Below are positions 1 through 12,109 of a stretch of 12,109 bases of DNA, piece by piece; position 1 is the first letter of the stretch, and each line of letters starts with the position of its first letter. The notes under the pieces were generated by a model, which ran no database searches, was not told the DNA's origin, and saw nothing but the letters and a program-made list of their open reading frames with translations. Made by a program: the position numbers and the translations under genes. Source of the DNA: a virus (taxonomy: Duplodnaviria; Heunggongvirae; Uroviricota; Caudoviricetes); IMG/VR virus record IMGVR_UViG_3300019790_000026, positions 1 to 12,109 of that record; one strand, given 5' to 3'.

Positions 1-264
1 TTCCTCGATCCGGTGTTGTCGTTGTCTCAGCAGTGCACTGGTCTGTTCTGCTTCGGCATAGAGCCGCGCCTGCTCCCGGTTATTGGTTTCAGTCAGAATG
101 GACAGGCTGATAAGCTGGCTGTTTTTCTTCGTCAGTTCCTGCGCTTTACTTTTCAGCGCCGCGCGCTGCGTTTCGATGGTGTGGCTGGCGCTGTTAAGCC
201 GCCACGACTGCCAGCCCAGCGCAACGAGTGCCAGCGCCACCACTACTGCCAGCGCACGCGTCAT
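1..264 (-). CDS. Rz/LysB-like i-spanin, partial (3-prime end lies beyond the left edge)
   Basis: Minus-strand ATG at 264..262 preceded by AAGGAG. Translation MTRALAVVVALALVALGWQSW... has an N-terminal transmembrane segment followed by a charged, coiled-coil-like region, as in Rz-family spanins. The start overlaps the upstream stop as ATGA. Confidence 0.6.
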   Translation of the reverse strand, partial: MTRALAVVVALALVALGWQSWRLNSASHTIETQRAALKSKAQELTKKNSQLISLSILTETNNREQARLYAEAEQTSALLRQRQHRIEE

Positions 265-458
265 AGTCCAGCTCCTTTAAGGCACCAGGCCATCTCCCGC
301 GCACGGCGGTTATCCAGCCCCTGATTAAACACACCTTTTACATAAACCCAGCGCGGCAACTGTCGGCACGCATCTGCCCAGCGCCGCTGATTGAGCAATT
401 TCACCAGTGTGGAACTACAGGCATTGCCCGTTGCTGCTTCTGCAGAGCAGACTCCAGT
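261..458 (-). pseudogene. C-terminal fragment of a GH24 (T4/P22-type) phage lysozyme, 5-prime truncated
   Basis: Minus-strand frame ending in TGA at 263..261 translates to ...LLNQRRWADACRQLPRWVYVKGVFNQGLDNRRAREMAWCLKGAGL, which resembles the conserved C-terminus of phage lysozymes. There is no start codon, and an in-frame stop sits at 459-461, so only about 65 codons remain. Confidence 0.45.
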
Positions 459-546
459 TCAGACAGGCGTTCTTCCTGCTCAGACAGAGATTTTTCGGTT
501 CGCGCGCTCAGGTTTTGCTGCTCAGTGGCGACCAGCTCCACGGCTC

Positions 547-2472
547 ATGACAGTGAAAGCAAAGCGTTTTCGCATCGGGGTGGAAGGTGCCACCACCGAC
601 GGACGCGAAATCCAGCGTGAATGGCTGGAACAGATGGCAGCCAGCTACAACCCGGCGGTGTATACCGCGCTGATTAACCTTGAGCACATCAAGTCTTATC
701 TGCCGGACAGCACCTTTAACCGCTACGGCAAGGTGACGGCGCTGTTTGCTGAGGAAATCACGGAAGGTCCGCTGGCAGGCAAGATGGCGCTGTATGCCGA
801 CGTTGAGCCAACGGAGTCCCTGGTGGAACTGGTGAAAAAACGCGACAAGTGGGGTGACTATGGGCCGCTGGATCAGATGCAGCTCACCACCGCCGCACGC
901 TACTGCCAGCTCATTATGAAGGAGCACAAAGAAGGGAAAGATTTCAAAGAGATTGACCTGCTGGCGCGCCAGTCGGAGCGCCATGCGCGGATCGGCAAGT
1001 TTAACAATGGCGGCAACGAAGCCGACTTAAACCCTAACGTCGCCAACCGCAACAAAGGCCCGCGTCGTCAGCCGGAAAAGAACGTTTTCACCGATGAACA
1101 GATTGAGAAGCTGGAAGAAATCTTCCATTCCTCCATGTTCAACTACCAGCGCCACTGGTGGGAAGCCGGAAAAACCAACCGCATCCGCAACCTGCTGAAG
1201 TCACGCCAGATCGGCGCGACCTTCTATTTTGCCCGTGAAGCCCTGATTGACGCCCTGCTAACCGGGCGTAACCAGATTTTCCTTTCCGCCAGCAAGGCAC
1301 AGGCCCACGTCTTTAAGCAGTACATCATCGACTTCGCCAAAGAAGTGGAGGTGGAGCTGAAAGGCGATCCGATAGTGCTTCCTAACGGGGCCACGCTGTA
1401 CTTCCTCGGCACCAATGCCCGCACGGCCCAGAGTTACCACGGCAACCTGTATCTGGATGAATATTTCTGGATACCGAAATTCCAAGAGCTGCGCAAAGTG
1501 GCTTCCGGTATGGCTATTCACAAAAAATGGCGACAAACCTATTTTTCCACGCCATCCAGCCTGACACACAGTGCTTATCCGTTCTGGTCCGGTGCGCTGT
1601 TCAACCGTGGGCGCAACAAAGCCGACAAGGTGGACATCGACCTGTCCCACAGCAATCTGGCCCCCGGCCTGCTGTGCACAGACGGGCAATACCGCCAGAT
1701 AGTCACCGTGGAAGATGCGGTGCGCGGCGGCTGTAACCTGTTCGACCTCGACCAGCTACGCATGGAGTACAGCCCGGACGAATACCAGAACCTGCTGATG
1801 TGCGAGTTCGTGGACGATCTCGCGTCCGTGTTCCCGCTCAGCGAGCTGCAAGCGTGCATGGTGGACAGTTGGGAAATCTGGACCGACTTTCATGCACTGG
1901 CCCTGCGCCCGTTTGGCTGGCGCGAAGTGTGGATCGGTTATGACCCGGCAAAAGGTACGCAGAACGGCGACAGTGCCGGATGCGTGGTGGTGGCACCGCC
2001 AGCCGTGCCGGGTGGTAAGTTCCGCATTCTTGAGCGTCACCAGTGGCGCGGGATGGACTTCCGCGCCCAGGCTGACGCCATCAAAAAACTGACCGAGCAG
2101 TACAACGTGACCTACATCGGCATCGACTCGACAGGTGTCGGCCACGGGGTTTACGAGAACGTGAAAGCGTTTTTTCCAGCCGTCCGGGAGTTTGTCTACA
2201 ACCCCAACGTTAAAAACGCCCTGGTACTCAAGGCCTACGACATTATCAGTCACCGTCGTCTGGAGTTTGACGCCGGACACACCGACATAGCGCAGTCATT
2301 TATGGCAATCCGTCGCGCCACCACCGCCAGCGGCAACCGCCCAACCTATGAAGCCAGCCGCAGCGAAGAAGCCAGCCATGCCGATCTGGCCTGGGCAACA
2401 ATGCACGCACTGTTTAACGAACCGCTGCAGGGCGAGTCCGCCAATACCAGCAATATTGTGGAGATTTTTTGA
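547..2472 (+). CDS. Terminase ATPase/large subunit (P2 gpP-like) with a foreign N-terminus resembling capsid scaffold/protease gpO (apparent fusion)
   Basis: From about codon 98 onward (KRDKWGD..., DFKEIDLL, SRQIGATFYFAREAL, NQIFLSASKAQAHVFK, LYFLGTNARTAQSYHGN) the ORF matches my recollection of the GpP terminase family. Residues 1-97 (KRFRIGVEGATTDGREI...INLEH...FNRYGKV) match the GPO scaffold N-terminal motifs. ATG at 547 is preferred over the tracked TTG at 391. The stop overlaps the portal start. Confidence 0.7.
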   Translation: MTVKAKRFRIGVEGATTDGREIQREWLEQMAASYNPAVYTALINLEHIKSYLPDSTFNRYGKVTALFAEEITEGPLAGKMALYADVEPTESLVELVKKRDKWGDYGPLDQMQLTTAARYCQLIMKEHKEGKDFKEIDLLARQSERHARIGKFNNGGNEADLNPNVANRNKGPRRQPEKNVFTDEQIEKLEEIFHSSMFNYQRHWWEAGKTNRIRNLLKSRQIGATFYFAREALIDALLTGRNQIFLSASKAQAHVFKQYIIDFAKEVEVELKGDPIVLPNGATLYFLGTNARTAQSYHGNLYLDEYFWIPKFQELRKVASGMAIHKKWRQTYFSTPSSLTHSAYPFWSGALFNRGRNKADKVDIDLSHSNLAPGLLCTDGQYRQIVTVEDAVRGGCNLFDLDQLRMEYSPDEYQNLLMCEFVDDLASVFPLSELQACMVDSWEIWTDFHALALRPFGWREVWIGYDPAKGTQNGDSAGCVVVAPPAVPGGKFRILERHQWRGMDFRAQADAIKKLTEQYNVTYIGIDSTGVGHGVYENVKAFFPAVREFVYNPNVKNALVLKAYDIISHRRLEFDAGHTDIAQSFMAIRRATTASGNRPTYEASRSEEASHADLAWATMHALFNEPLQGESANTSNIVEIF

Positions 2473-3497
2473 TGGGAAAGAGTAAGAAAAACCGCGCTGC
2501 GGCGACGAACCAGATCCAGCATAAAAACCAAACTTCAGCCGAAGCATTCAGCTTCGGTGATCCCGTTCCTGTTCTGGACCGCCGCGAATTACTGGACTAT
2601 GTGGAATGCGTAAAGATGGACCGCTGGTATGAGCCACCCGTAAGTTTTGACGGACTGGCGCGAACATTCCGCGCCGCCGTACACCACAGTTCACCGATTG
2701 CAGTAAAGTGCAACATTCTGACCAGCACCTACATCCCTCACCCGCTGCTCAGCCAGCAGGCGTTTTCACGTTTTGTGCAGGACTATCTGGTTTTTGGTAA
2801 CGCCTACCTGGAGAAACGCACGAACCGATTCGGTGAAGTTATCGCCCTTGAGCCTGCGCTGGCAAAATACACCCGACGCGGATTAGACCTAGATACCTAC
2901 TGGTTTGTGCAATACGGCATGACCACGCAGCCGTATCAGTTCACGAAAGGCAGCATTTTTCATCTGATGGAACCGGACATCAACCAGGAGATCTACGGCC
3001 TGCCCGGCTATCTTTCTGCCATCCCATCCGCCCTGCTCAACGAGTCCGCCACGCTGTTCCGCCGAAAGTATTACATTAACGGTAGTCATGCAGGCTTCAT
3101 CATGTACATGACCGATGCCGCGCAGAACCAGGAAGATGTGAACAACCTCCGCAATGCGATGAAAAGTGCCAAAGGCCCTGGCAACTTCCGCAACCTGTTT
3201 ATGTACTCGCCTAATGGTAAAAAAGACGGACTTCAGATTATCCCGTTGTCAGAAGTCACAGCGAAGGATGAGTTTCTGAATATCAAGAACGTGAGCCGTG
3301 ATGACATGATGGCGGCACACCGCGTGCCGCCGCAAATGATGGGAATTATGCCTAATAATGTCGGGGGGTTTGGGGATGTGGAGAAGGCTAGCAAGGTATT
3401 CGTAAGAAACGAATTGATGCCCCTGCAGAAACGATTGCAGGAACTAAATAACTGGTTGGACGAAGAAGTGCTCAATTTTTCAACCTATGAGCTTTAG
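2472..3497 (+). CDS. Portal protein (P2 gpQ-like)
   Basis: 341-aa ORF directly after the terminase gene with TGATG stop/start overlap. Size and position match P2 Q, and the sequence resembles the gpQ portal family. ATG at 2472 is preferred over the tracked TTG at 2469. Confidence 0.85.
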   Translation: MGKSKKNRAAATNQIQHKNQTSAEAFSFGDPVPVLDRRELLDYVECVKMDRWYEPPVSFDGLARTFRAAVHHSSPIAVKCNILTSTYIPHPLLSQQAFSRFVQDYLVFGNAYLEKRTNRFGEVIALEPALAKYTRRGLDLDTYWFVQYGMTTQPYQFTKGSIFHLMEPDINQEIYGLPGYLSAIPSALLNESATLFRRKYYINGSHAGFIMYMTDAAQNQEDVNNLRNAMKSAKGPGNFRNLFMYSPNGKKDGLQIIPLSEVTAKDEFLNIKNVSRDDMMAAHRVPPQMMGIMPNNVGGFGDVEKASKVFVRNELMPLQKRLQELNNWLDEEVLNFSTYEL

Positions 3498-3502
3498 TTT
3501 TA

Positions 3503-3533
3503 AAACGAAGACCATTAGGTCTTCGCTTTATTT
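3503..3533. terminator. Bidirectional intrinsic terminator shared by the convergent portal and retron RT genes
   Basis: Hairpin CGAAGACC (3506-3513), loop ATTA, GGTCTTCG (3518-3525), flanked by an A-run on the left and CTTTATTT on the right, so it reads as stem plus U-tract on both strands. The RT stop codon lies in the loop. Confidence 0.5.
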
Positions 3534-4477
3534 AAAGGGTTCTTTCCATATTTTTTTTCTAATTTGCTAATATAAGTTATTAATCTCCTATGGCTTTTTG
3601 AATCCACACTTAAAATAAATGACAACCATCCCCTAACGTGTTCTATCTCAGAAGACTTACCGCAAAATATATGATGTATCTTTGCTCTAATTTCTTTATA
3701 TTTTTCTCTACCTATCCCAACTTTCTCTTGTGAAATAACTAAACCTGTAACTTTCCTCTGACTACGAGGCCCACTAATACAAGTTTTTTTTGAGTTAATA
3801 ACCAATCCTTCACTTGGGATTATAGAAAATAAAAAATCACGTGCTTTAACAACCTTTTTCATAGACTGTGCAGATAAGGTGAGATCATCGGCATATCTCG
3901 TATATATCAAGCCCCGACTACCTGCATAACCCTGAATACGATAATCAAGTTTAGAACATATTAGATTAGCTAATTTAGGTGATGATGGAGCACCTTGTGG
4001 TAGCAGATTTTTATAACAACATATTTTTGTCAAAACTGAAGATATTAGTCGATTATAACCAAGAGAATGGAACACTCCAAAAACTTTGTTAGCAGTTAAA
4101 CTTGGGAAAAAATCCTCCAAATCAATATTCAGTATAAAGTTTGCCCCAATATGCGGGGTAGCATTATTCAAAATAGATTGGTGCTTTTCAAATCCAATAG
4201 AAAAAGGAGATGACGACAGTTTATCTAAAATGTTACGTAGAACCCATCCTTGTAAGGCTTTAAGTTCTCGAGAAGGTTGGTAAATGGTTCTCATTCTCTT
4301 CTCTGGGCCTTTCTTTTCTACAGTGTAGATCCTATAGCGAAAATCAGCTGTATAGATTAACAACCGAAGTGTTTCAACAGATATGCGAGTCGCCTTAGAC
4401 ATGTCATGCAAATTGTTCATGACAGGTAGGCCGAGATTTCTCAATCTAAAAGTGTTCAAATATTCAGCGGATTTCAT
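3515..4477 (-). CDS. ret: Retron reverse transcriptase, Ec86 / Retron-Eco1 type
   Basis: 320-aa ORF with reverse-transcriptase motifs (NIDLEDFFPS, LPQGAPSSPKLANL, YADDLTLS) and the retron-typical VTG motif (RKVTGLVIS). The translation matches my memory of the published Ec86 RT, and the gene sits immediately downstream of the msr-msd. Confidence 0.93.
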   Translation of the reverse strand: MKSAEYLNTFRLRNLGLPVMNNLHDMSKATRISVETLRLLIYTADFRYRIYTVEKKGPEKRMRTIYQPSRELKALQGWVLRNILDKLSSSPFSIGFEKHQSILNNATPHIGANFILNIDLEDFFPSLTANKVFGVFHSLGYNRLISSVLTKICCYKNLLPQGAPSSPKLANLICSKLDYRIQGYAGSRGLIYTRYADDLTLSAQSMKKVVKARDFLFSIIPSEGLVINSKKTCISGPRSQRKVTGLVISQEKVGIGREKYKEIRAKIHHIFCGKSSEIEHVRGWLSFILSVDSKSHRRLITYISKLEKKYGKNPLNKAKT

Positions 4478-4484
4478 GAAAGTT

Positions 4485-4496
4485 GCGCACCCTTAC
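4485..4496 (-). repeat. Retron a2 inverted repeat (pairs with a1 at 4641-4652)
   Basis: 12-nt exact reverse complement of 4641-4652. Confidence 0.85.
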
Positions 4497-4639
4497 GTCA
4501 GAAAAAACGGGTTTCCTGGTTGGCTCGGAGAGCATCAGGCGATGCTCTCCGTTCCAACAAGGAAAACAGACAGTAACTCAGATTCAATGCAGGATGCCGA
4601 AACAACATCCAGAGGTTGACCTTAATGATAAACCTCTCG

Positions 4640-5563
4640 CTAAGGGTGCGCATACGGAATCTTATCATAGTTAAATGTTGATTTTCTACGGTTTTCAAAA
4701 TTCATAATCTCAAGCCGCAATCGGTCAAGTGTCTTTCTATCAAAGACGCTCCTAACATAGCTAGCCCCCAAAGCAGTGACCTGATAACCATCAGTCATTT
4801 GAAGTATTTTTCGTTCATTTATTAGACGAGAAACAACGGATCTAACAATAATTTTAGATAAAACATCATCTTGCTTTATCGCTTTAAAAGCTAGTTCACA
4901 CAGTGTGCGGTAGTTGACACTATCCAGTAAATAGATACAAGGCAATAGAAACCGCTCTGCGTATAATATATTTCCAATATCTTTTGATACTTTATTTTCT
5001 TTCCTAACCTTCTTAATAGATGCCATTAATTTTTTATATAATCGTAATTTTCTGGCAACATCAATAGATGAATCACACATTTCTTTTAGTTCATTTGAAC
5101 TACAACGCAAAACAGATTTTGAATTAAACTTACGCAACAGGCGAACAGGACCATAGTTAATAAAGCTACGTTTTGATTTAAATTTTGCATCTTGAATGCA
5201 AATCAACTTTCTCCTTAAGTTTTCATTATTAGAGAACGCACCAAGCTCTGTGAAAGACCCCGGACTTTCAGGAAATAAAATTATTACATCGACAGCTTCA
5301 GCCAGAATATTTTCTAAACTTAAAAGGCTATGCTGCCCTTGACCAGCCAAAAGATCATCAAATAGATCTTCTGGATAAAATATATCAACATCACTGAACT
5401 TTGCTAAAAATTGTGATAATTGATGACGCCAAGATTGATGATTAGCAACGTCACCACCACATAGAAAAATGGTTATTTTAATATTAGCTCCTCGATAGAA
5501 GCCTTTCTTTGTGAGATGTCCTATAAGCTGTTGTTGCTGCTCATCGGTAAATTTTTTATTCAT
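4640..5563 (-). CDS. Retron effector: nucleoside 2-deoxyribosyltransferase-like (NDT) domain with a C-terminal putative DNA-binding region
   Basis: 307-aa ORF immediately upstream of msr-msd-ret on the same strand, with RBS GGGGAGA. The N-terminal region (IFLCGGD..., ILFPESPGSFTELGAF) fits the NDT/flavodoxin-like fold with the conserved Glu. Its TAG stop overlaps the a1 repeat. Confidence 0.85.
   Translation of the reverse strand: MNKKFTDEQQQQLIGHLTKKGFYRGANIKITIFLCGGDVANHQSWRHQLSQFLAKFSDVDIFYPEDLFDDLLAGQGQHSLLSLENILAEAVDVIILFPESPGSFTELGAFSNNENLRRKLICIQDAKFKSKRSFINYGPVRLLRKFNSKSVLRCSSNELKEMCDSSIDVARKLRLYKKLMASIKKVRKENKVSKDIGNILYAERFLLPCIYLLDSVNYRTLCELAFKAIKQDDVLSKIIVRSVVSRLINERKILQMTDGYQVTALGASYVRSVFDRKTLDRLRLEIMNFENRRKSTFNYDKIPYAHP
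4641..4652 (-). repeat. Retron a1 inverted repeat; the presumed priming G follows at 4640
   Basis: 12-nt exact reverse complement of 4485-4496, at the 5-prime end of msr. Confidence 0.85.
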
Positions 5564-5704
5564 AATCTCCCCGCTTTTTTTTCTACTTTATACATCAAGT
5601 TATGAATAGATCCAATCTCCATACCACATGGCGCGCGCTCGTATCCCCGCCACGCCTGCCCGCTTTATGCAGTGGTTTTCATGCACATGCATAACATGAG
5701 CAAA

Positions 5705-5730
5705 AGCCCGCCAGTTCTGGCGGATCTGAG
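5705..5730 (-). terminator. Putative intrinsic terminator (minus-strand sense)
   Basis: Perfect hairpin CCGCCAG-N3-CTGGCGG (5708-5726) followed on the minus strand by GCTTTTGC. Confidence 0.3.
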
Positions 5731-6035
5731 CAAAGACGATCCTCAATCGATCATGCGATTTCATGCAGCATAGTCATGCACTGTCAAGGAAGTGAAAATC
5801 CGTATCTGAATGGCCACTTGAAAAACGGATCATACGGGTTTACAAAGATGAATGTTCGCTGTGAACGGGAAGCGGAAGTTAACTTTCAGATAACATAATC
5901 CATATGCACGAGAACCTCTAAAATAGAATGGGACACCTAAGCGGGGTACTTACAACGATTCTTTCCATATTCACAGTTAACACTCTGTTTGGCGTATTTT
6001 TATTCAAATAGCAAACACCAATAAAAGGAGTTTCC

Positions 6036-6371
6036 ATGAACAATATTCCCCCTATACCACAGTTAGGAATTTATGTCTCAAAAATCGATCCCACCCTACG
6101 TATCACTGTAACCGATGTTGATATTGTTGATGGTGAGGATGATTCTCCTGATGATGAATTGTTTTATTTAGTCCACTGGATCGAGGGGGAAGATGAAAGT
6201 GATATGACAGCAATGGGATTTGAGCTAGACCCAGTAGAGTGGCAGGCTTTCGTTGAATCTGAGCAATTAGTGTTTGAGCGTGATCCGTACATGGATTCAA
6301 TCCCCGAAAATTCAAACTTGGCAAAGATTCGGGATTTTCTCATGAAGACTAAACAGAATGATCATTCGTAA
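6036..6371 (+). CDS. Hypothetical small, strongly acidic protein (111 aa)
   Basis: Strong RBS AAAAGGAG 6 nt upstream of ATG. Very Asp/Glu-rich (DVDIVDGEDDSPDDE, EGEDESD). AT-rich relative to the phage core. Divergent from the retron effector. Confidence 0.7.
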   Translation: MNNIPPIPQLGIYVSKIDPTLRITVTDVDIVDGEDDSPDDELFYLVHWIEGEDESDMTAMGFELDPVEWQAFVESEQLVFERDPYMDSIPENSNLAKIRDFLMKTKQNDHS

Positions 6372-6563
6372 GTGTAAGCATCCATCAGGAAAATGGTTTT
6401 GTAAGTGAATCATCAACTTTTAGAGAGTCTCAGACACTCCCACTTCTGCTTCTGACACAAAGCGGACGATCACTTATCAAAATAACCGCCCACCTTACGC
6501 CTTATTTCACTCATTGCCCAAACTAGCCCCCATCAGAATGAATCCTCCTGGGGGCAACATTTC

Positions 6564-6797
6564 TTAATGCAGCCAGCTGTCGTCCTCCCACACCTTCTGC
6601 ATAATTTTCATCACTTGTTTTCTTTCTTCATCCAGTTGCAGTCCGGTTAGTTCCACACCGTTAGAGCTACCTTTGCGAATGCGAATTACCGTTTTGGGAT
6701 ACAGGGGGCGCAGATTGCGGTAAAGCTCGGATTCAAGGGCGTCCAGGGTAGACTGGCTAATCTTCTGCTCTTTATCGATCATTATTTCAATGCGCAT
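6564..6797 (-). CDS. DinI-family protein (DNA-damage-inducible protein I-like)
   Basis: 77-aa product MRIEIMIDKEQKISQSTLDALESELYRNLRPLYP...VWEDDSWLH has the DinI length and pattern (MRIEV..., C-terminal acidic W motif). RBS GGTGA upstream. ATG at 6797 is preferred over the tracked 101-aa extension. Confidence 0.8.
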   Translation of the reverse strand: MRIEIMIDKEQKISQSTLDALESELYRNLRPLYPKTVIRIRKGSSNGVELTGLQLDEERKQVMKIMQKVWEDDSWLH

Positions 6798-6807
6798 AAA
6801 AGTCACC

Positions 6808-6996
6808 TCAGCTGATGACATCCATTGAGCGGTTGTATTCGTGGCTTCTGATTTTTGCCATGAGTTCATCAGTCAATTCAGAAACCCACTGCAGAGCCAG
6901 CCCCTTCTCTTCATCACTACACTCACTAGCCGCTACAAGCTTAAGAAAAAAATCAATGCGCTGGAGCTTCAAAGACTCCAAAAAATAGTCCTGCAT
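6808..6996 (-). CDS. Hypothetical 62-aa protein, first gene of the SOS-boxed operon (possibly the N-terminal part of a Tum-like antirepressor)
   Basis: ORF with strong RBS AGGAGG, directly downstream of the LexA-box promoter and 10 nt upstream of the DinI-like gene. Confidence 0.5.
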   Translation of the reverse strand: MQDYFLESLKLQRIDFFLKLVAASECSDEEKGLALQWVSELTDELMAKIRSHEYNRSMDVIS

Positions 6997-7036
6997 CTTT
7001 CCTCCTATGACACCAAAACAATACTGTATACATAAC

Positions 7037-7056
7037 CACTGTTTATATTTACAGTA
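7037..7056. promoter_or_regulatory. LexA (SOS) box overlapping a putative promoter for the orf62/DinI-like operon
   Basis: cACTGTttatatttACAGta is a perfect CTGT-N8-ACAG with AT-rich spacer. A second half-site (TACTGTATAC) lies at 7022-7031. A TTTACA / TATACT promoter-like pair is on the minus strand. Confidence 0.7.
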
Positions 7057-7148
7057 TATAATAATCTTACTGATGTAAAACGTTTTTTTACGTTCATCGG
7101 CCTGATATGCCTGGTATTATTAAGAGCACGAATTGTCAACCCGCGTAA

Positions 7149-8594
7149 TTAATACAGGTTCCGCCACTTATCATCTTCCTTCAGACGCTGGTTCCGATAG
7201 AAGATACGCAGGCCTGCTCCTGACGGAATACTGCCGCCGCGAAGGAGCAAATCGACTTCTTTCTCGCTGCCATCAAATCCCCTGGACTTCAGTTCATAGA
7301 CGAGCTGCTGTCGCTGATGGTCTGTAATTCGCTGTTTGTAGTCTTTACGCCGTTTCGGTTTCACCTGGCGTAACCTTGCAGCCAGTTCCCGGCGCTCTTT
7401 TTTGCTCATACTGTGCAGGTAATTGTGCAACTCCTTGTCATTCATACGGGTAATATCCGTTCTGGAGTCCCCATCAGCTGATTTGTCTTTCCCTTGTTGG
7501 TTCAAATTTTCAGCAAGGGGACAGTTATTGCCACGAGTCCAAGGGGCGCAAGCGCCCTGGTCGGCTGCCGCCTCCTGAACGTCAACGGCCTTACGAACCA
7601 TTTTCCACTTCACCGCATGAGTGCAGATCTTGCCCTCTGCAATGGGTGACCAGATGCCATAAATACGAATACCGTGATCGCCATATGCGGTCGGTTCTTC
7701 GTTGATTTCATAAGCAGTTCTGATGAGGTGATATTTGCGGGGAACCAGTACGCCGCCCTGCTTCATGATGTAGGTGGCAAAACAACCAGCATCAGCAGCA
7801 GCCAGGATTGCATCAAGACGCGGGTTATCCAGTACCGGCGCACCTGCTTTTTTGTCACCCTGTTGCCTTGCCGCCTGACCAGCCAGCAATCGCAGTTCAC
7901 GGTAAGCCTGACGCCCCGGAATGCCAAAGAAGCGGAATTGCTGAACACGATGCAGAGACGCCCAGGCATTAACGTATTCAGCGTTATCACGCAGGGATTT
8001 ACCCGTTTCCTTGCTGATCTCCCCAGCCAGACCACGCCCGTCAATGTTCTTACTGATGTATTTCGCGATATAGCTTGTTGGCGTACCTTTGCGCGGGTTT
8101 ATCAGCTCAGACTTAAAGCGTGGTCCCGTGTTATTGCCCAGCTCCTCGCGGTCTTCACGGATGGCAAACTTACGCAGTAATGCAGTGATGGCGCGGCGGT
8201 CTTTTTTACGCATGAAACACATGAGATGCCAGTGCACAGTACCGTCATGATGCGGCTCAGCTACCGCACCTGCAGCAACACGCCCGATCTCTGCGGTTGC
8301 ACTCATGACGTAATGTGGCAGTTTCTCTTTTGCCACCTCATTAATCGGTACGCATGGCAGGCAGTGAATCTGAGCCAGAAAACCATCTACCAGCGTTGAA
8401 TCTTCAGTCAGATCGGTAAGCAGCCAGATTTCTGGTGCGGTTAATAAATGAGGTTGCGCTGGGTTCAACTTGTTCCGCAGAATCTGCACATTCATGCCAG
8501 CACGTTCTGCCAGTTGCACCAGGTTGTGGCGCAATGCGAATGCACGACAGGCTTCATCAAAATGTGGATGTTTGGAAACTTGGTAATCAAACAT
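7149..8594 (-). CDS. In-frame fusion ORF: 186 CII-like N-terminus (~115 aa) joined to the C-terminal catalytic part of a gpA-type rolling-circle replication initiator
   Basis: N-terminus [24 protein letters not shown]...[26 protein letters not shown] matches my recollection of phage 186 CII. The downstream part carries the HUH-like HWHLM motif and the paired-tyrosine motif [12 protein letters not shown] typical of P2 gpA / phiX174 A proteins. ATG at 8594 with RBS AGAGG. Confidence 0.65.
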
Positions 8595-8626
8595 GGTCAA
8601 TGCCTCTGATGTATTTCAGAATCGAA

Positions 8627-8848
8627 CTAATTAAGGTTTAGATTGCATTCTGAAAGCGCATCAACGGTCATTGCTGCTATGTTGATCATCACTTTTTCGC
8701 GTTTTTTATCTTTGCGCAGTCGGTGACGGATAAGGCGTCCATCAGCCAACATGTCATTGATGGTATCGATGGATAGCCCTGTCAGCTCGCTATAGCGTTC
8801 AATAGTCACATGAGGGGTGGTAAGAGTGATTGAAATGTTAGGTCTCAT
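8627..8848 (-). CDS. Apl/Cox-like small HTH protein (first early-lytic gene: excisionase / transcription regulator)
   Basis: 73-aa ORF divergent from the CI gene and immediately upstream of the CII-like ORF, as apl is in phage 186. HTH-like segment [21 protein letters not shown]. Confidence 0.5.
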
Positions 8849-8967
8849 GATGCAACATTCCTCGTTTAATGATGATTAATCAGGACGAATACGGATCGTT
8901 TGTATTTTGTGAACACCATAAACATACGATCGCACAGTGAAATCGTCAAGATAAAAGTTCACTTGGA
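8849..8967. promoter_or_regulatory. Immunity switch region between apl-like and cI-like genes (lytic/lysogenic promoters and candidate operators)
   Basis: 119-bp divergent intergenic region containing related motifs ATACGGATCGTTTGTAT and ATACGATCGCAC. Its position matches the pR/pL switch of 186-type phages. Confidence 0.4.
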
Positions 8968-9543
8968 GTGACCATGAATTTGGAGAAAGGCGGACGAGGC
9001 GCTATAGAGCGCATGGTAGAAGCTTATGGATTCAAGACTCGACAGGCGTTGTGCGATCATTTAGGAATCTCTAAAAGTACACTCGCCACACGCTACATGC
9101 GTGACTCATTCCCAGCAGAATGGGTAATCCAGTGCGCCCTTGAAACAGGCACCTCGCTTAATTGGCTCACAACCGGGCATGGTTCAAAGCAAACTTCAGG
9201 TAATACAAATACTATGGAAGTTGCTAAATATGTATTATCTGATGGGGCCTTGTGTGAAGACGGTTTTTATATTTTCGATAGAGAATTTCTACCGTCGGCA
9301 TTCAAGAATCTTTTTGTAATCACAGATAATAATTCTGAATTTATTTGTGATAAGGAATTTGATGATATACGTGATGGTAAATGGGTAATAAGTATTGATG
9401 GCGAAATAACGATCCGTGACATTACTCGTTTACCCGGTGGAAGAATCTTCGTCGAGGGTGGAAATAGAGCCTTCGAGTGCAAGATAGAAGATGTTGAAAT
9501 AATTGGGAAAATTATAAGTTTAACAATTAAGTACGTTAGGTAA
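8968..9543 (+). CDS. cI: CI-type immunity repressor (phage 186 CI-like)
   Basis: 191 aa (186 CI is 192 aa). N-terminal HTH (TRQALCDHLGISKSTLATRYMRD) with a C-terminal oligomerisation-like domain. RBS GGAGTGA. Divergent from the apl-like gene and upstream of int. Confidence 0.8.
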   Translation: MTMNLEKGGRGAIERMVEAYGFKTRQALCDHLGISKSTLATRYMRDSFPAEWVIQCALETGTSLNWLTTGHGSKQTSGNTNTMEVAKYVLSDGALCEDGFYIFDREFLPSAFKNLFVITDNNSEFICDKEFDDIRDGKWVISIDGEITIRDITRLPGGRIFVEGGNRAFECKIEDVEIIGKIISLTIKYVR

Positions 9544-9558
9544 TACCGGGAGGAAACT

Positions 9559-9750
9559 ATGCTTGGTAAGGTATTTTTTGTGGTTTTATCATGCTCTTTG
9601 TTATTAAACCCACTAACTACCTATGCTAAAAATTATCCTTGTTCTGGGAAAAAGGGAGGTGTCTCTCACTGTACCTCCGATGGAAAGTTCGTTTGCAATG
9701 ATGGAACTATTAGTAAATCAAAAAAAATCTGTACTAAAAACTCGCGATAA
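9559..9750 (+). CDS. Small secreted Cys-rich protein (63 aa) inserted between cI and int
   Basis: RBS GGAGGAAACT-ATG. Predicted signal peptide [23 protein letters not shown], then a Lys-rich mature peptide of about 40 aa with 5 Cys. Confidence 0.55.
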
Positions 9751-9936
9751 ATTTTGCTTTTATATCTGCGCCTAATATAACAATGAGCCGCAGGCTAACC
9801 GCAAAAGTCACATACTCACATAGCAAAAAATAGCTAACTTCATTATGGCTTCAGTGAGATGTATGGTCGCAGGATTTCATACATTGACACTGGTTATACA
9901 TACAGTAAAAATGCTCTCTACTGGAGGGCATTTTTT

Positions 9937-10953
9937 ATGGCAGTACGAAAACTCACCACAGGAAAATGGCTTTGCGAATGTTACCCCGCCGGACGTAGTG
10001 GACGTCGTGTGCGTAAACAATTCGCCACCAAAGGCGAAGCTCTGGCTTTTGAGCGTCACACGATGGAAGAAACCGAAGCAAAGCCCTGGCTGGGCGAATC
10101 AGTGGATCGTCGGACATTGAAAGACGTGATTGAGCTATGGTTCAAACTACATGGTAAATCTCTGACAGCTGGGCAGCATGTCTATGACAAACTGCTGTTG
10201 ATGGTTGACGCTCTGGGCAATCCCCTTGCAACTGATCTAACCTCTAAAATGTTTGCCCACTATCGAGATAAACGCCTGACAGGTGAGATCTACTTCAGCG
10301 AGAAATGGAAGAAAGGAGCAAGCCCGGTCACCATTAACCTGGAGCAAAGCTATCTAAGTAGTGTTTTTAGCGAACTATCCCGCCTGGGCGAATGGTCGTA
10401 TCCGAACCCACTGGAGAACATGCGAAAATTCACCATCGCAGAAAAAGAGATGGCATGGCTTACCCATGAGCAGATTGTTGAACTGCTGGCTGATTGCAAA
10501 CGTCAGGACCCAATTCTGGCACTGGTAGTCAAGATATGCCTAAGCACAGGCGCACGCTGGCGAGAAGCAATAAATCTTACCCGCTCGCAAGTGACCAAAT
10601 ACCGAATTACCTTTGTAAGAACGAAGGGGAAGAAAAACAGAAGCATCCCTATCAGTAAAGAGCTTTACGAAGAGATCATGGCGCTTGATGGGTTCAATTT
10701 CTTTACAGACTGCTATTTTCAATTTTTATCCGTGATGGAAAAAACGTCTATCGTGCTCCCTCGCGGTCAACTGACACACGTTCTGCGCCATACGTTTGCG
10801 GCGCACTTCATGATGTCGGGTGGAAATATCCTTGCTTTGCAAAAAATCCTCGGACATCACGATATAAAAATGACTATGCGCTATGCCCATTTAGCACCCG
10901 ATCATCTTGAGACGGCTCTGAGATTCAACCCCCTCGCAACGCTAGAAGTGTGA
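9937..10953 (+). CDS. int: Tyrosine integrase (P2/186 Int family)
   Basis: 338 aa. Catalytic residues in context: ...STGARWREA..., ...HVLRHTFA..., ...MRYAHL.... RBS GGAGGG. ATG at 9937 is preferred over the tracked start at 9859. Confidence 0.9.
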   Translation: MAVRKLTTGKWLCECYPAGRSGRRVRKQFATKGEALAFERHTMEETEAKPWLGESVDRRTLKDVIELWFKLHGKSLTAGQHVYDKLLLMVDALGNPLATDLTSKMFAHYRDKRLTGEIYFSEKWKKGASPVTINLEQSYLSSVFSELSRLGEWSYPNPLENMRKFTIAEKEMAWLTHEQIVELLADCKRQDPILALVVKICLSTGARWREAINLTRSQVTKYRITFVRTKGKKNRSIPISKELYEEIMALDGFNFFTDCYFQFLSVMEKTSIVLPRGQLTHVLRHTFAAHFMMSGGNILALQKILGHHDIKMTMRYAHLAPDHLETALRFNPLATLEV

Positions 10954-11061
10954 TCTACTGGTGCAAAAATAACATCATCCCCCACTAGCTGAGTTAATTG
11001 CGTCAGAGTAAACTTTTATCAGTATATAAGTTCACTTTTATTCAATATATTAAGAGATTAC

Positions 11062-11394
11062 ATGGCTATCATTACCGTAAAAAAACATACTGTCAAAAAA
11101 GCATTATCGATGGGATTTGAAAAAGTACTTGACGATCGTGGTTATGATTCTGGGGCGTACTACGTTAAAGATGGCAAAAAGTGGATTTTTGATATTGTTG
11201 CGCTTAAGCAAAAACAAGGAGCAACCTCAGATGATGAGTTAAAAATCCTTGGGTATGATGTTGATACATATAATCTTGTAAAAAATGAATCTAATGAACT
11301 GGCTGAACTTTATCAAGATATTGCAGTTGAAGATGGTGAGCCAATGTATCTAGAGGGTGGCGTGTACTTATATCCTGATGGTTCTATCCGTTAG
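11062..11394 (+). CDS. Hypothetical protein (110 aa), AT-rich, just downstream of int
   Basis: ORF with AT-rich promoter-like upstream region. No family recognised. Composition contrasts with the GC-rich sequence that follows it. Confidence 0.5.
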   Translation: MAIITVKKHTVKKALSMGFEKVLDDRGYDSGAYYVKDGKKWIFDIVALKQKQGATSDDELKILGYDVDTYNLVKNESNELAELYQDIAVEDGEPMYLEGGVYLYPDGSIR

Positions 11395-11528
11395 CATGCA
11401 AATTGGCAGCACAACCGGGTTGTTCCAAATGGCGACAAAGTGGCGGCAGCGGTTGGCATTACCCCGTAATAACCACCACTGACCACCAACCCAACTTATT
11501 GTTTTTACTATAACTTATTGTTTTCATT

Positions 11529-11594
11529 AACCCGTTTACATAAATGGGTTTTTTGTTATCTAAAACTTATCTACTACCCTGCAACCCTCTCAAC
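11529..11594. repeat. Inverted repeat copy A (66 bp, perfect reverse complement of 12044-12109)
   Basis: Direct comparison: 11529-11594 equals the reverse complement of 12044-12109 at every position. Confidence 0.95.
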
Positions 11595-12074
11595 CATCCT
11601 CAAAATCTCCTCGCGCGATAGCGGCTTACGGTCGGTGACAAAATGCAGCGTCATCCCCTCAATAAACGCATCAAGCGCGCGGGCGGTTCCGGGTTCAAAC
11701 CATTGTTCGAGCGTTTGCTGACTGCGCTGCATCCAGTTTTGCATTACCGTTTTTAATAGCGGTTTTCGGCTAGCCAGCGCGTAGAGCTGGTACATCAGCT
11801 CCATGTTATCCGGCGTTGCAACCTGTGAGCTGTAGATCATATCGGTGATAGCCTGGCATGCGCCCGGAGCATCACTAACATCGCTAAAAAATGCCTGATA
11901 TTGCCGGGACATGATCTCAGTAAAACTGCTGAACGCCTCCAGTAACAACTCATCAATTCCTGAAAAATAGTAGGTCATCGATCCCAACGGTACCCCGGCA
12001 AGGGTAGCAATTTTGCGGTGCGTAACAGCATGTATTCCGTAAAGTTGAGAGGGTTGCAGGGTAGTAGATAAGTT
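11574..12074 (-). pseudogene. TetR-family transcriptional regulator, apparently 5-prime truncated by the inverted repeat
   Basis: The minus-strand frame is open from 12074 to the TAG at 11576..11574. It encodes a TetR-type HTH ([27 protein letters not shown]) and a ligand-binding-like C-terminal domain. There is no ATG upstream of the HTH (only a TTG at 11987, inside the HTH). The first codons and the last codons plus stop lie inside the two inverted-repeat copies. Confidence 0.65.
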
Positions 12075-12109
12075 TTAGATAACAAAAAACCCATTTATGT
12101 AAACGGGTT
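12044..12109. repeat. Inverted repeat copy B (66 bp, cut by the window edge, so it may be longer)
   Basis: Perfect reverse complement of 11529-11594. The window ends inside or at the end of the repeat. Confidence 0.95.

What the first reader, a model, noticed from the sequence alone, without database searches (positions are those of the whole stretch)
10954..11528. AT-rich 110-aa ORF after int, followed in the same frame by a GC-rich tail that looks like a displaced gene 3-prime end
orf110 is compositionally foreign and has its own promoter-like region. Immediately after its TAG, the same frame continues for 24 codons (HANWQHNRVVPNGDKVAAAVGITP) before a double stop, in GC-richer sequence. This could be a prophage attachment junction inside the 3-prime end of a host gene, or cargo carried next to int.
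Basis: inference. Interest (0 to 1): 0.45.

Follow-up and report, generated by a model that had tools for sequence, protein, structure and literature searches.

The report
Cargo gene between integrase and attP
The small AT-rich gene is accessory cargo at the integrase end of the well-known P2/186-like prophage of E. coli B. The GC-rich "tail" after it is the phage's own integrase-binding DNA, not a broken host gene, so the finding is largely ordinary and explained.

Summary
orf110 (11062-11394, 36% GC) follows int, and 24 sense codons continue in frame to TAATAA.

The att interpretation does not hold. Window 834-12046 is 100% E. coli BL21(DE3): the int end of the 186-type prophage that carries retron Ec86.

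In related prophages and phages int runs uninterrupted for 350 aa, ending ...ATL-PSGDKVAAAVGITP*. Relative to them the window has 480 extra bases (10945-11424) holding orf110. From 11425 on, the tail is therefore the last 14 codons of the phage's own long-form int.

That DNA holds two tandem 11-bp Int arm-type sites (11427-11448). They match 20 of 22 bases of the sites annotated in phage 186, and the tandem recurs in the other attP arm.

The real crossover core is ATGGGTTTTTTGTT (11544-11557). It is the last 14 nt of the host sRNA gene rybB, which stays intact at the far prophage end.

At least five different cargoes occupy the same slot in relatives, including DUF4917/PDC-S21 and a Panacea antitoxin pair. 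A 2026 paper already lists int-att as a minor defence hotspot of P2-like phages.

orf110 is a real, conserved gene with no family or fold match. Its function is unknown.

The parts
9937..10953 (+). int: a 338-aa tyrosine integrase of the 186 type, ending ...RFNPLATLEV*. It is a short form; most relatives encode 350 aa.
   Evidence: Pfam Int_N 2.5e-32 and Phage_integrase 6.3e-22; phrog_1 integrase 3.5e-75. Annotated as WP_000290930.1 in REL606, BL21 and FORC_081. It differs from HH194M Int only by I65V over the 336 shared residues.
10882..10944 (+). Last 21 shared codons of int. They are unusually diverged at synonymous sites, which marks the left crossover of the swapped cargo module.
   Evidence: 15 mismatches in this 63-nt block against HH194M, versus 0-5 in each of the other fifteen blocks. 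None of the 15 changes an amino acid.
10945..11424 (+). 480 bp present here and absent from cargo-free relatives. This is the occupied int-attP cargo slot: the 2 replacement int codons plus stop, a spacer, orf110, and 30 bp after its TAG.
   Evidence: Alignment A1 against HH194M, which has no insert, and 14EC007, which has a different insert at the same point. IMG/VR census. GC 36.2%.
11062..11394 (+). orf110: a conserved hypothetical protein (WP_000974872.1), acidic (pI 4.7), built of two modules. Function unknown.
   Evidence: 29 homologues, all Enterobacterales. All aligned homologues end at the same point...DGSIR or DGSMH (alignment A3). pN/pS 0.31 against the Providencia copy. 121 representative clusters by profile search. 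No hit in Pfam, PHROGs, PADLOC or NCBIfam. No fold match.
11425..11472 (+). The 'tail'. It is homologous to the last 14 codons plus TAATAA of the 350-aa int of relatives (PNGDKVAAAVGITP** here, PSGDKVAAAVGITP** there). It is not translated here.
   Evidence: One mismatch in the block 11425-11472 against HH194M and 14EC007. 112 of 119 IMG/VR loci have int reading straight through it. Klebsiella phages KP12 and 4LV2017 and Escherichia phage vB_EcoM-813R9 match int and this arm while lacking the insert.
11427..11448 (-). Two tandem 11-bp Int arm-type binding sites of the attP P arm. On the - strand they read TGCCGCCACTT and TGTCGCCATTT.
   Evidence: The published 186-type arm consensus is tgccGCCActt (PMC3448106). 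The 186 GenBank record gives YAYCGCCAYTY. The 186 P-arm sequence AATGGCGATAAAGTGGCGGTAG matches the window's AATGGCGACAAAGTGGCGGCAG at 20 of 22 positions. The same tandem, ATGGCGACAAAATGGCGGCAGCG, lies in the P' arm beside ogr in REL606.
11493..11529 (+). Two direct repeats, AACTTATTGTTTTTACTA and AACTTATTGTTTTCATTA, between the arm sites and the core. They are candidate sites for the excisionase (Apl) or IHF. This is inference.
   Evidence: the repeat finder family D10. In phage 186, Apl and IHF sites are annotated in the equivalent interval between the core and the int-side arm sites.
11529..11556 (+). Intrinsic terminator-like hairpin plus T tract. The 5' half of the stem is phage DNA; the 3' half and the T tract are the att core. 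It is the likely end of the cI-int-orf110 transcript.
   Evidence: It is the only + strand terminator-like site found in 9700-11700. RNA fold of 11500-11575: -11 kcal/mol, z -2.3.
11544..11557 (+). att core ATGGGTTTTTTGTT. It is a duplicate of the last 14 nt of the host sRNA gene rybB (3' half of the terminator stem plus U tract). Host DNA runs from here rightwards.
   Evidence: The 14-nt block is identical in the K-12 empty site, in the REL606 ybjL-side junction and in the window. K-12-type genomes match the window only from 11544. Rfam RybB RF00110 scores 105 bits at L003 2936-3014, whose last 14 nt are the core. RybB is intact at the other prophage end, L005 10762-10684.
11574..12043 (-). 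Host gene rcdA (ybjK), 3' part.
   Evidence: RefSeq annotation of REL606 and BL21; 100% identity to BL21 up to 12046.

Best explanation
The region is the integrase-proximal end of the 186-type, P2-family prophage of E. coli B/BL21 (the one carrying retron Ec86). The prophage is integrated in the 3' end of the sRNA gene rybB, between ybjL and rcdA.

orf110 is an accessory ('moron') gene in a variable slot bounded by two functional constraints. On the left is the end of the conserved integrase core (...NPLATL, codon 336). On the right is the outermost cis element of attP: two tandem 11-bp Int arm-type binding sites at 11427-11448.

In cargo-free relatives the slot is 5 bp long. There int simply reads on across the arm-site DNA for 14 more codons, giving a 350-aa Int. 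When cargo is present, int ends early on cargo-specific codons (EV* here). That it shares orf110's frame is a coincidence of a 480-bp (160-codon) difference.

The module seems to move between related prophages by homologous recombination, with one crossover in the last ~60 nt of int and the other in the attP arm. This step is inferred.

orf110 is most likely transcribed with cI and int in the lysogen and terminated at the hybrid phage/rybB hairpin at 11529-11556. This step is also inferred.

Its biochemical function is unknown. By position and by the company it keeps, the most likely role is a lysogen-expressed factor in phage or mobile-element conflict (defence or counter-defence). I put that at about 0.3-0.4. 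The overall confidence given here applies to the structural reading (cargo slot, tail as int end and arm sites, core in rybB), not to that role.
For: Identity of the locus:
- Window 834-12046 is 100% identical to BL21(DE3). Annotated context is in REL606 and BL21.

The tail is the int 3' end:
- Alignment with HH194M and 14EC007.
- 112 of 119 IMG/VR loci carrying the tail have uninterrupted int.
- Sequenced phages KP12, 4LV2017 and vB_EcoM-813R9 share int and the arm but lack the insert.

The tail carries arm-type sites:
- Exact match to the published 186-type consensus tgccGCCActt (PMC3448106).
- 20 of 22 bases identical to the annotated 186 P-arm sites, which there also begin right after the last gene of the lysogenic operon.
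- The same tandem lies in the P' arm.
- Int carries W11, E14 and Y16. These are the residues PMC3448106 names as 186-type discriminators; my mapping onto its alignment columns 16, 19 and 21 is unchecked.

Core and target:
- 14-nt identity block at 11544-11557, equal to the last 14 nt of rybB.
- K-12 homology starts at 11544.

A slot with variable cargo:
- Five different cargoes share the same left boundary (after ATL/ATM) and right boundary (A[AG]|TGGCGAC).
- They include DUF4917/PADLOC PDC-S21 (E 9e-122) and a SocA/Panacea antitoxin with a partner ORF.
- About 21% of complete E. coli genomes carry this arm; 71 of them have orf110.
- PMC13586616 reports int-att as holding 3% of P2 defence systems.
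- Phage 186 itself has Orf69 in this position.

Short Int is plausibly functional:
- FORC_081 has an essentially complete prophage at the same site with the identical 338-aa Int and orf110.
- 186 Int ends 7 aa after NPL.

Recombination breakpoint:
- 15 synonymous mismatches in the last 63 nt of int, against at most 5 per block elsewhere.

orf110 is a real gene:
-.
Against: - No experiment here shows Int binding at 11427-11448. The 186 record itself calls its arm sites 'predicted'.
- The polarity is not resolved. Cargo may have been inserted into a long int, or the long int may have arisen by cargo loss that fused int to arm-site DNA.
- The IMG/VR census required an exact 39-nt tail match, and IMG/VR prophage boundaries are software calls, so the frequencies are rough.
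- Co-transcription with int is inferred only from strand, the lack of an intervening terminator-like site and the lack of a consensus promoter.
- orf110 has no hit in PADLOC or any other library and no structural analogue, so the conflict-related role is guilt by association.
- The prophage in B strains is defective, so nothing in BL21 itself shows that the module still functions.
Confidence: 0.85

Rival explanations
1. The GC-rich tail is the displaced 3' end of a host protein gene, cut by prophage integration, so the att junction lies at about 11395-11470.
For: The stretch is open, GC-richer than its surroundings and ends in a double stop. The prophage does integrate in the 3' end of a host gene, rybB.
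Against: The K-12 empty site has no homology left of 11544. The neighbouring host gene ybjL keeps its own unrelated 3' end. The tail is part of int in 112 of 119 related viral contigs and in sequenced phage genomes. The core repeat shared by both prophage ends is at 11544-11557.
Confidence: 0.02
2. orf110 and the tail are one gene of about 134 aa, interrupted by a TAG mutation or read through at TAG.
For: Same frame, with no other stop for 24 codons.
Against: All 15 aligned family members from eight or more genera end at the same point as orf110 (...DGSIR; DGSMH in one), in unrelated downstream contexts. The distal 14 codons are int-derived arm-site DNA shared with prophages that lack orf110. 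The frame match follows from a 480-bp insert plus a 1-in-3 coincidence.
Confidence: 0.02
3. The polarity is reversed. Cargo between int and the arm sites is the ancestral 186-like state (as with Orf69). The common 350-aa int would then be a secondary deletion product that fused int to arm-site DNA. On this view the tail is not a 'displaced' coding end but DNA that was later overprinted by int.
For: Phage 186 has a gene in the slot, and its Int ends shortly after NPL. Every cargo-bearing variant has its own short int ending. The 14 extra residues lie beyond the catalytic Tyr region and are absent from 186 Int.
Against: The empty form dominates (112 of 119 loci; about two thirds of a 40-genome E. 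coli sample) with one uniform junction. Cargo modules bring diverged int 3' ends, as expected for imports. Neither observation is decisive.
Confidence: 0.3
4. orf110 is an accessory factor of site-specific recombination, modulating Int or excision, rather than conflict or host-fitness cargo.
For: It lies between int and attP and is probably co-transcribed with int.
Against: Homologues occur without any adjacent integrase, in selC islands of Salmonella, Kluyvera and Providencia and in a decayed remnant in Franconibacter. Most phages with this int and attP lack it. An Apl/Cox-position gene is present at 8627-8848 as the expected directionality factor. Other occupants of the slot are defence-like or toxin-antitoxin genes.
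Confidence: 0.05

Closest known systems
Phage 186 (Eganvirus) lysogenic operon end: cI - int - orf69 - attP
   Same: Same gene order and strand logic. There is a small non-essential ORF between int and attP. Tandem 11-bp Int arm-type sites start right after the last ORF and match the window at 20 of 22 bases. Further protein-binding repeats lie between the arm sites and the core. The core lies in the 3' end of a small RNA gene, and a terminator sits at or beyond attP.
   Different: The target is rybB, not tRNA-Ile ileY. The cargo protein is unrelated: Orf69 is a 'LAPDGTYVGG' repeat protein, and comparison with orf110 gives BLASTP E 0.097 and hhalign probability 0.7%. An extra 63-aa ORF lies between cI and int.
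int-att defence hotspot of P2-like prophages (PMC13586616, Nucleic Acids Res 2026); the P2 hotspot concept of PMC9122126
   Same: Variable cargo between integrase and att in otherwise related P2-like prophages. Several occupants are recognisable defence or toxin-antitoxin genes. The main gpA-gpQ hotspot in this same prophage holds retron Ec86.
   Different: orf110 matches no known defence family. In the passages I read, the paper does not give the anatomy seen here: the slot opens inside the long-form int ORF and is bounded by the arm-type sites.
Integration of temperate elements into the 3' end of tRNA, tmRNA or sRNA genes, with reconstitution of the gene
   Same: The core equals the last 14 nt of rybB. 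The gene is rebuilt intact at one junction and a short duplicate is left at the int-side junction. The E. coli W genome paper already names this prophage site after rybB, as 'Rybb*B', which carries retron Ec86 (PMC3032704).
   Different: Only 14 nt are identical, with an imperfect extension to about 27. The duplicate is recruited into a hybrid terminator with a phage-supplied 5' stem half.
Lambdoid 'morons' and lysogenic-conversion genes
   Same: A compositionally distinct (36% GC) single gene inserted between conserved phage functions, presumably expressed from the prophage.
   Different: No autonomous promoter or terminator pair was detected. It appears to ride on the lysogenic operon and on the att-site terminator.

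Membership tests
186-type P2-family site-specific recombination module (Int + attP) | Heterobivalent tyrosine integrase with an N-terminal arm-binding domain and a C-terminal catalytic domain | tested here: met
   Pfam Int_N 2.5e-32 and Phage_integrase 6.3e-22. RYAHL, with the catalytic Tyr, is present. W11, E14 and Y16 are the 186-type discriminator residues named in PMC3448106; the mapping onto its alignment columns 16, 19 and 21 is mine.
186-type P2-family site-specific recombination module (Int + attP) | At least two direct arm-type repeats on each side of the core, matching tgccGCCActt / YAYCGCCAYTY | tested here: met
   P arm 11427-11448: an 11/11 match to tgccGCCActt plus a 9/11 match. 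P' arm in REL606: ATGGCGACAAAATGGCGGCAGCG.
186-type P2-family site-specific recombination module (Int + attP) | Common core present in attB and at both prophage junctions | tested here: met
   ATGGGTTTTTTGTT is identical in K-12, in the REL606 ybjL-side junction and at window 11544-11557.
186-type P2-family site-specific recombination module (Int + attP) | Int binds the arm sites and catalyses integration and excision | not testable with these tools
   Needs EMSA or footprinting and in vivo recombination assays.
   K-12-type genomes match only from 11544. The feature is met only for the 14-nt core, which duplicates the end of rybB.
P2-like int-att accessory/defence hotspot cargo | Located between int and the att site, with conserved flanks and variable content among related prophages | tested here: met
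   Five cargo types with identical boundaries. The hotspot is described in PMC13586616.
P2-like int-att accessory/defence hotspot cargo | The cargo belongs to a known or candidate defence family | tested here: not met
   orf110 has no PADLOC, Pfam, PHROG or NCBIfam hit. Other occupants do: PDC-S21 at 9e-122 and SocA_Panacea at 2e-19.
P2-like int-att accessory/defence hotspot cargo | Confers protection against phage infection | not testable with these tools
   Needs plaque assays with orf110 expressed or deleted.
Phage 186 Orf69 family | Significant sequence similarity to Orf69 | tested here: not met
   BLASTP best E 0.097, over a 13-24-residue motif only; hhalign probability 0.7%.

The most novel reading that the evidence does not exclude
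The orf110 family is a previously unrecognised single-gene factor in phage or mobile-element conflict (defence, superinfection exclusion or anti-defence), expressed from the lysogenic operon. The family has about 121 representative clusters, no annotation and no detectable fold relative. It consists of a basic N-module that also occurs duplicated or fused to other proteins, and an acidic C-terminal motif 'DGEPVYLxxGMYLxPDGS'. That motif also ends a PIN_8 nuclease-domain protein, so it would be a shared recognition or partner-binding tag.
Probability: 0.25. Interest if true: 0.5.

Novelty: new member of a known kind. Interest (0 to 1): 0.22.

Why it matters
Mainly as a correction and a clean annotation.

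- It places the true attachment core of the BL21/REL606 Ec86 prophage in the last 14 nt of rybB.
- It shows that an apparent gene fragment is cis-acting attP DNA: Int arm-type sites that cargo-free relatives also read as the end of int.
- It gives precise boundaries for the minor int-att cargo slot of P2/186-like phages. Those boundaries could be used to harvest its contents systematically.
- orf110 sits in the most widely used protein-expression strain and remains uncharacterised. It is a cheap candidate to test for a phage-related phenotype.

Nothing here challenges current understanding.

Tried and rejected
- **Host-gene origin of the tail.** Rejected: no homology in empty-site genomes.
- **Read-through or pseudogene fusion of orf110 with the tail.** Rejected: all aligned homologues end at the same point.
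- **Family assignment of orf110.** Nothing in Pfam, PHROGs, PADLOC or NCBIfam. The best hits were phrog_11801 at E 0.005 and phrog_27221 at E 0.013, which I regard as noise.
- **Homology of orf110, or of the 89-aa cargo of strain 14EC007, to 186 Orf69.** Not significant.
- **A constant genetic partner for orf110.** None. Neighbours vary: RhuM, SymE, AbiE, HNH, Rap1a.
- **A coincidence of ORF sizes.** In locus L017, ORFs of 307 and 111 aa lie next to an orf110 homologue, the same sizes as the retron effector and the neighbouring ORF in the window. BLASTP found no similarity.
- **An own promoter for orf110.** No consensus match on the + strand.
- **Literature.** Nothing found for WP_000974872. 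A bioRxiv paper on H-NS silencing in BL21 could not be opened.

Full report
**1. What is in the sequence**

The ORF is as described: 11062-11394, + strand, ATG start, 110 aa, TAG stop. Its GC is 36.3%, against 47.9% for the upstream integrase gene at 9937-10953.

After the TAG the same frame stays open for 24 codons, HANWQHNRVVPNGDKVAAAVGITP, and ends in TAA TAA. GC there is 50-56%. int, orf110 and the tail share one reading frame.

The consensus scan found no sigma-70-like site on the + strand between int and orf110. The only + strand terminator-like site in 9700-11700 is at 11529-11550.

**2. Where the window comes from**

Window 834-12046 is 100% identical to E. coli BL21(DE3). The region is the right end of the P2-family prophage of E. 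coli B that carries retron Ec86.

The order in the window is: terminase, portal, retron RT and effector, a truncated early region, cI, a 63-aa ORF, int, orf110, then the host gene rcdA on the opposite strand. The other prophage end, next to ogr, abuts ybjL.

The switch region is of the phage 186 type, with CI, CII, Fil and an Apl-position gene.

**3. The tail is the end of the phage's own int, not a host gene**

E. coli genomes fall into three classes when compared with 11300-11700:
- 71 genomes match throughout.
- A group matches from 11425/11426 on. In part of this group an annotated integrase overlaps the match.
- K-12 and most others match only from 11544.

In strain HH194M the same prophage type has an int of 350 aa. 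It runs straight through...RFNPLATL-PSGDKVAAAVGITP**, with no orf110. Relative to it the window has 480 extra bases (10945-11424) between the Leu336 codon and CCA. From 11425 to 11472 the two differ at one base (AGT to AAT, Ser to Asn).

Thus 11395-11424 belongs to the insert, and 11425-11472 corresponds to the last 14 codons of the long-form int. Klebsiella phages KP12 and 4LV2017 and Escherichia phage vB_EcoM-813R9 share int (about 96% identity) and this arm but lack the insert.

**4. A recurrent cargo slot**

An exact-match scan of IMG/VR for the tail returned 119 loci.
- 110 have the uninterrupted spacing. Two more are uninterrupted variants: one with a diverged anchor sequence, one with a 15-nt deletion inside int.
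- 7 carry cargo.

Together with strain 14EC007, five different cargoes occupy the slot:

| Cargo | Seen in | Family evidence |
|---|---|---|
| orf110 (110 aa) | window, BL21, one IMG/VR locus | none |
| 89-aa ORF | 14EC007, one IMG/VR locus | none above threshold |
| 327-aa protein | one IMG/VR locus | DUF4917 1.4e-61; PADLOC PDC-S21 8.8e-122 |
| 240/251-aa ORF with a weak HEPN-like hit | three IMG/VR loci | HEPN_RiboL-PSP E 0.004, below cut-off |
| SocA/Panacea antitoxin (155 aa) plus a 251-aa partner | one IMG/VR locus | SocA_Panacea 2.1e-19 |

The 240/251-aa ORF reads through into the tail and ends ...SGDKVAAAVGITP*.

In every case int homology stops after ...NPLAT(L/M), followed by a few cargo-specific codons (EV*, PTSIASF*, NNA*, DVTKSDS*, VTT*). 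In every case the shared sequence resumes at A[AG]|TGGCGACAAAGTGG.

In complete E. coli genomes, 1120 of 5426 carry this attP arm and 71 have orf110. In an evenly spaced sample of 40 of the 1120, 27 have int annotated across the arm and 13 do not.

The last 63 nt of int before the insert show 15 synonymous differences from HH194M, against 0-5 in each other 63-nt block. This suggests the module was imported by homologous recombination, with its left crossover near 10880.

**5. Why the tail is always kept: it is cis-acting attP DNA**

On the minus strand, 11438-11448 reads TGCCGCCACTT. That is an exact match to the published 186-type Int arm-site consensus tgccGCCActt (PMC3448106). The adjacent 11427-11437 reads TGTCGCCATTT.

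The GenBank record of phage 186 annotates predicted arm-type sites (consensus YAYCGCCAYTY) on both sides of its core. Its int-side sites, AATGGCGATAAAGTGGCGGTAG, start right after the stop of the last gene of the lysogenic operon. They match the window's AATGGCGACAAAGTGGCGGCAG at 20 of 22 positions.

The same tandem, ATGGCGACAAAATGGCGGCAGCG, lies in the other arm of the REL606 prophage, just beyond ogr.

The window's Int has W11, E14 and Y16. PMC3448106 proposes W, E and Y as the residues that distinguish 186-type from P2-type arm binders; the mapping onto its alignment columns is mine.

The slot is therefore bounded on one side by what Int needs as a protein and on the other by what Int needs as a DNA site. 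The open frame in the tail is a by-product.

Phage 186 Int ends 7 residues after NPL. FORC_081 carries an essentially complete prophage at the same site with the identical 338-aa Int and orf110. The 14-residue extension is therefore probably dispensable (inference).

Which state is ancestral, cargo insertion or cargo loss, is not resolved. I keep it as a rival at 0.3.

**6. The real attachment site**

Aligning the K-12 empty site, the REL606 ybjL-side junction and the window gives an identical 14-nt block, ATGGGTTTTTTGTT, at window 11544-11557. An imperfect extension brings it to about 27 nt.

Rfam places RybB (RF00110, 105 bits) at K-12 locus positions 2936-3014. The last 14 nt of RybB are exactly this core. 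RybB is intact at the far prophage end in REL606, and no RybB hit occurs in the window.

So the prophage integrates into the 3' half of the rybB terminator and rebuilds the gene at the ybjL-side junction. At the int end only the 14-nt duplicate remains. There, phage sequence 11529-11543 supplies a new 5' stem half, forming a terminator-like hairpin with the T tract.

The E. coli W genome paper already names this prophage site after rybB: 'Rybb*B carries retron Ec86' (PMC3032704).

Between the arm sites and the core lie two 18-nt direct repeats at 11493-11529. By analogy with 186 they may be Apl or IHF sites (inference).

**7. orf110 itself**

It is a real gene.
- 29 homologues were found among 5.8 billion clustered proteins, all from Enterobacterales and down to 45% identity. 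All 15 aligned members end at the same point as orf110, in a conserved C-terminal motif.
- pN/pS is 0.31 against the Providencia copy.
- A profile search found 121 representative clusters and shows two modules. An N-terminal module of about 65 aa also occurs duplicated or at the C-termini of longer proteins. A C-terminal motif, DGEPVYLxxGMYLxPDGS, also ends a PIN_8-domain protein.

No library gives it a family. The model has pLDDT 75.5 and no structural neighbour.

Homologues sit in the following places:
- Just inside selC (tRNA-SeC) islands in Salmonella, in an island carrying pertactin-type autotransporter, EcpR_N and RhuM domain genes (SPI-3-like by my recollection); also in Kluyvera and in Providencia huaxiensis.
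- Downstream of a lambda-type integrase in Providencia rettgeri.
- In a decayed remnant at the same ybjL-rcdA site in Franconibacter.

There is no constant partner gene. The pattern is that of stand-alone island or prophage cargo that is retained after the element decays.

The function remains unknown. A role in phage or mobile-element conflict is the best guess, based on its location in the lysogenic transcription unit and on the nature of the other slot occupants.

**8. Comparison with what is known, and verdict**

The arrangement cI-int-small ORF-attP is that of phage 186, which has Orf69 in the slot. The int-att interval of P2-like prophages has been reported as a minor defence hotspot holding 3% of systems (PMC13586616). 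The rybB site and the Ec86 prophage are known.

What this analysis adds is modest:
- the exact boundaries of the slot;
- the overlap of long-form int with the arm sites, which explains the 'tail';
- the hybrid terminator at the int-side junction;
- the recognition of orf110 as an unannotated two-module family.

The junction interpretation is refuted at the coordinates given, though a junction in a host gene's 3' end does exist 75 bp downstream. The 'cargo next to int' alternative is supported. Interest is low to moderate.

Noticed in passing
window 12044-12109 (with 11529-11594): The last 66 bases of the window are a perfect reverse complement of 11529-11594. In BL21 and REL606, rcdA continues normally here. 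This looks like a fold-back chimera or assembly artefact that replaces the first ~22 codons of rcdA, not a biological inverted repeat.
   Followed up: yes
window 1-843: Relative to BL21(DE3), window 539-843 is an inverted copy of a 305-bp piece of the capsid-scaffold (gpO) region. About 590 bp around it are missing, and the junctions have short overlaps (539-544 and 834-843). This is a second inverted-chimera junction in the same window, which suggests the source contig is an imperfect assembly of BL21-like DNA.
   Followed up: partly
window ~8258-8269: The window, like BL21(DE3), lacks 3,357 bp present in REL606: from inside the replication gene A, through dam, traR-like, DUF2732, DUF5347 and fil, into cII. 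The junction has a 12-bp overlap. This is a BL21-versus-REL606 lineage difference inside the prophage.
   Followed up: partly
window 3515-5563 (- strand): Retron RT (320-aa ORF) and a 307-aa effector, annotated 'retron St85 family', lie in the gpA-gpQ defence hotspot. This is the locus known as retron Ec86. FORC_081 has the same prophage backbone, int and orf110, but a DEAD/DEAH helicase plus a hypothetical gene in that hotspot instead. No Rfam family matched the retron ncRNA at gathering threshold.
   Followed up: partly
window 9559-9750 (+): A 63-aa ORF lies between cI and int (phrog_6000 4.6e-34; NCBIfam PRK10040/YdcA-like 4e-34). It is a second small gene of unknown function in the lysogenic operon. 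In strain 14EC007 this cI-int position instead holds a 558-aa DUF4041 protein; a 558-aa SNIPE/T5orf172-domain protein of the same length lies in the Franconibacter remnant.
   Followed up: no
IMG/VR loci L050, L081, L086 (the same slot in related prophages): A 240/251-aa cargo ORF with a weak HEPN-like hit has no stop of its own. It reads through into the arm-site DNA and so ends with the same 13 residues as long-form Int (...SGDKVAAAVGITP*). This is a second, independent use of the arm-site DNA as coding sequence.
   Followed up: partly
L145 (phage 186) 21157-21408, compared with window 11335-11391: 186 Orf69, which occupies the same int-attP position, consists of six or so 'LAPDGTYVGG' repeats. 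The conserved C-terminal motif of orf110, YLEGGvYLYPDGS, resembles one such unit. The similarity is not statistically supported (BLASTP E 0.097; hhalign probability 0.7%), so it may be chance.
   Followed up: yes
L009 6001-6345 and tRNA-SeC 6663-6757 (Salmonella enterica); L011 (Kluyvera); L138 (Providencia): orf110 homologues (52-75% identity) lie in selC-associated islands. In Salmonella the homologue is the first gene inside an island that carries pertactin-type autotransporter, EcpR_N and RhuM domain genes (SPI-3-like by my recollection), about 320 bp from tRNA-SeC, and is represented by 920 member sequences.
   Followed up: partly
L141 (Franconibacter daqui) 1-6444: Between ybjL and the rcdA-like TetR gene there is no integrase, but there are an orf110 homologue (78% identity), a SNIPE/T5orf172 gene and a DUF6216 gene, the latter also present in the E. 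coli B prophage. This looks like a decayed remnant of the same prophage family that has kept only cargo genes.
   Followed up: no
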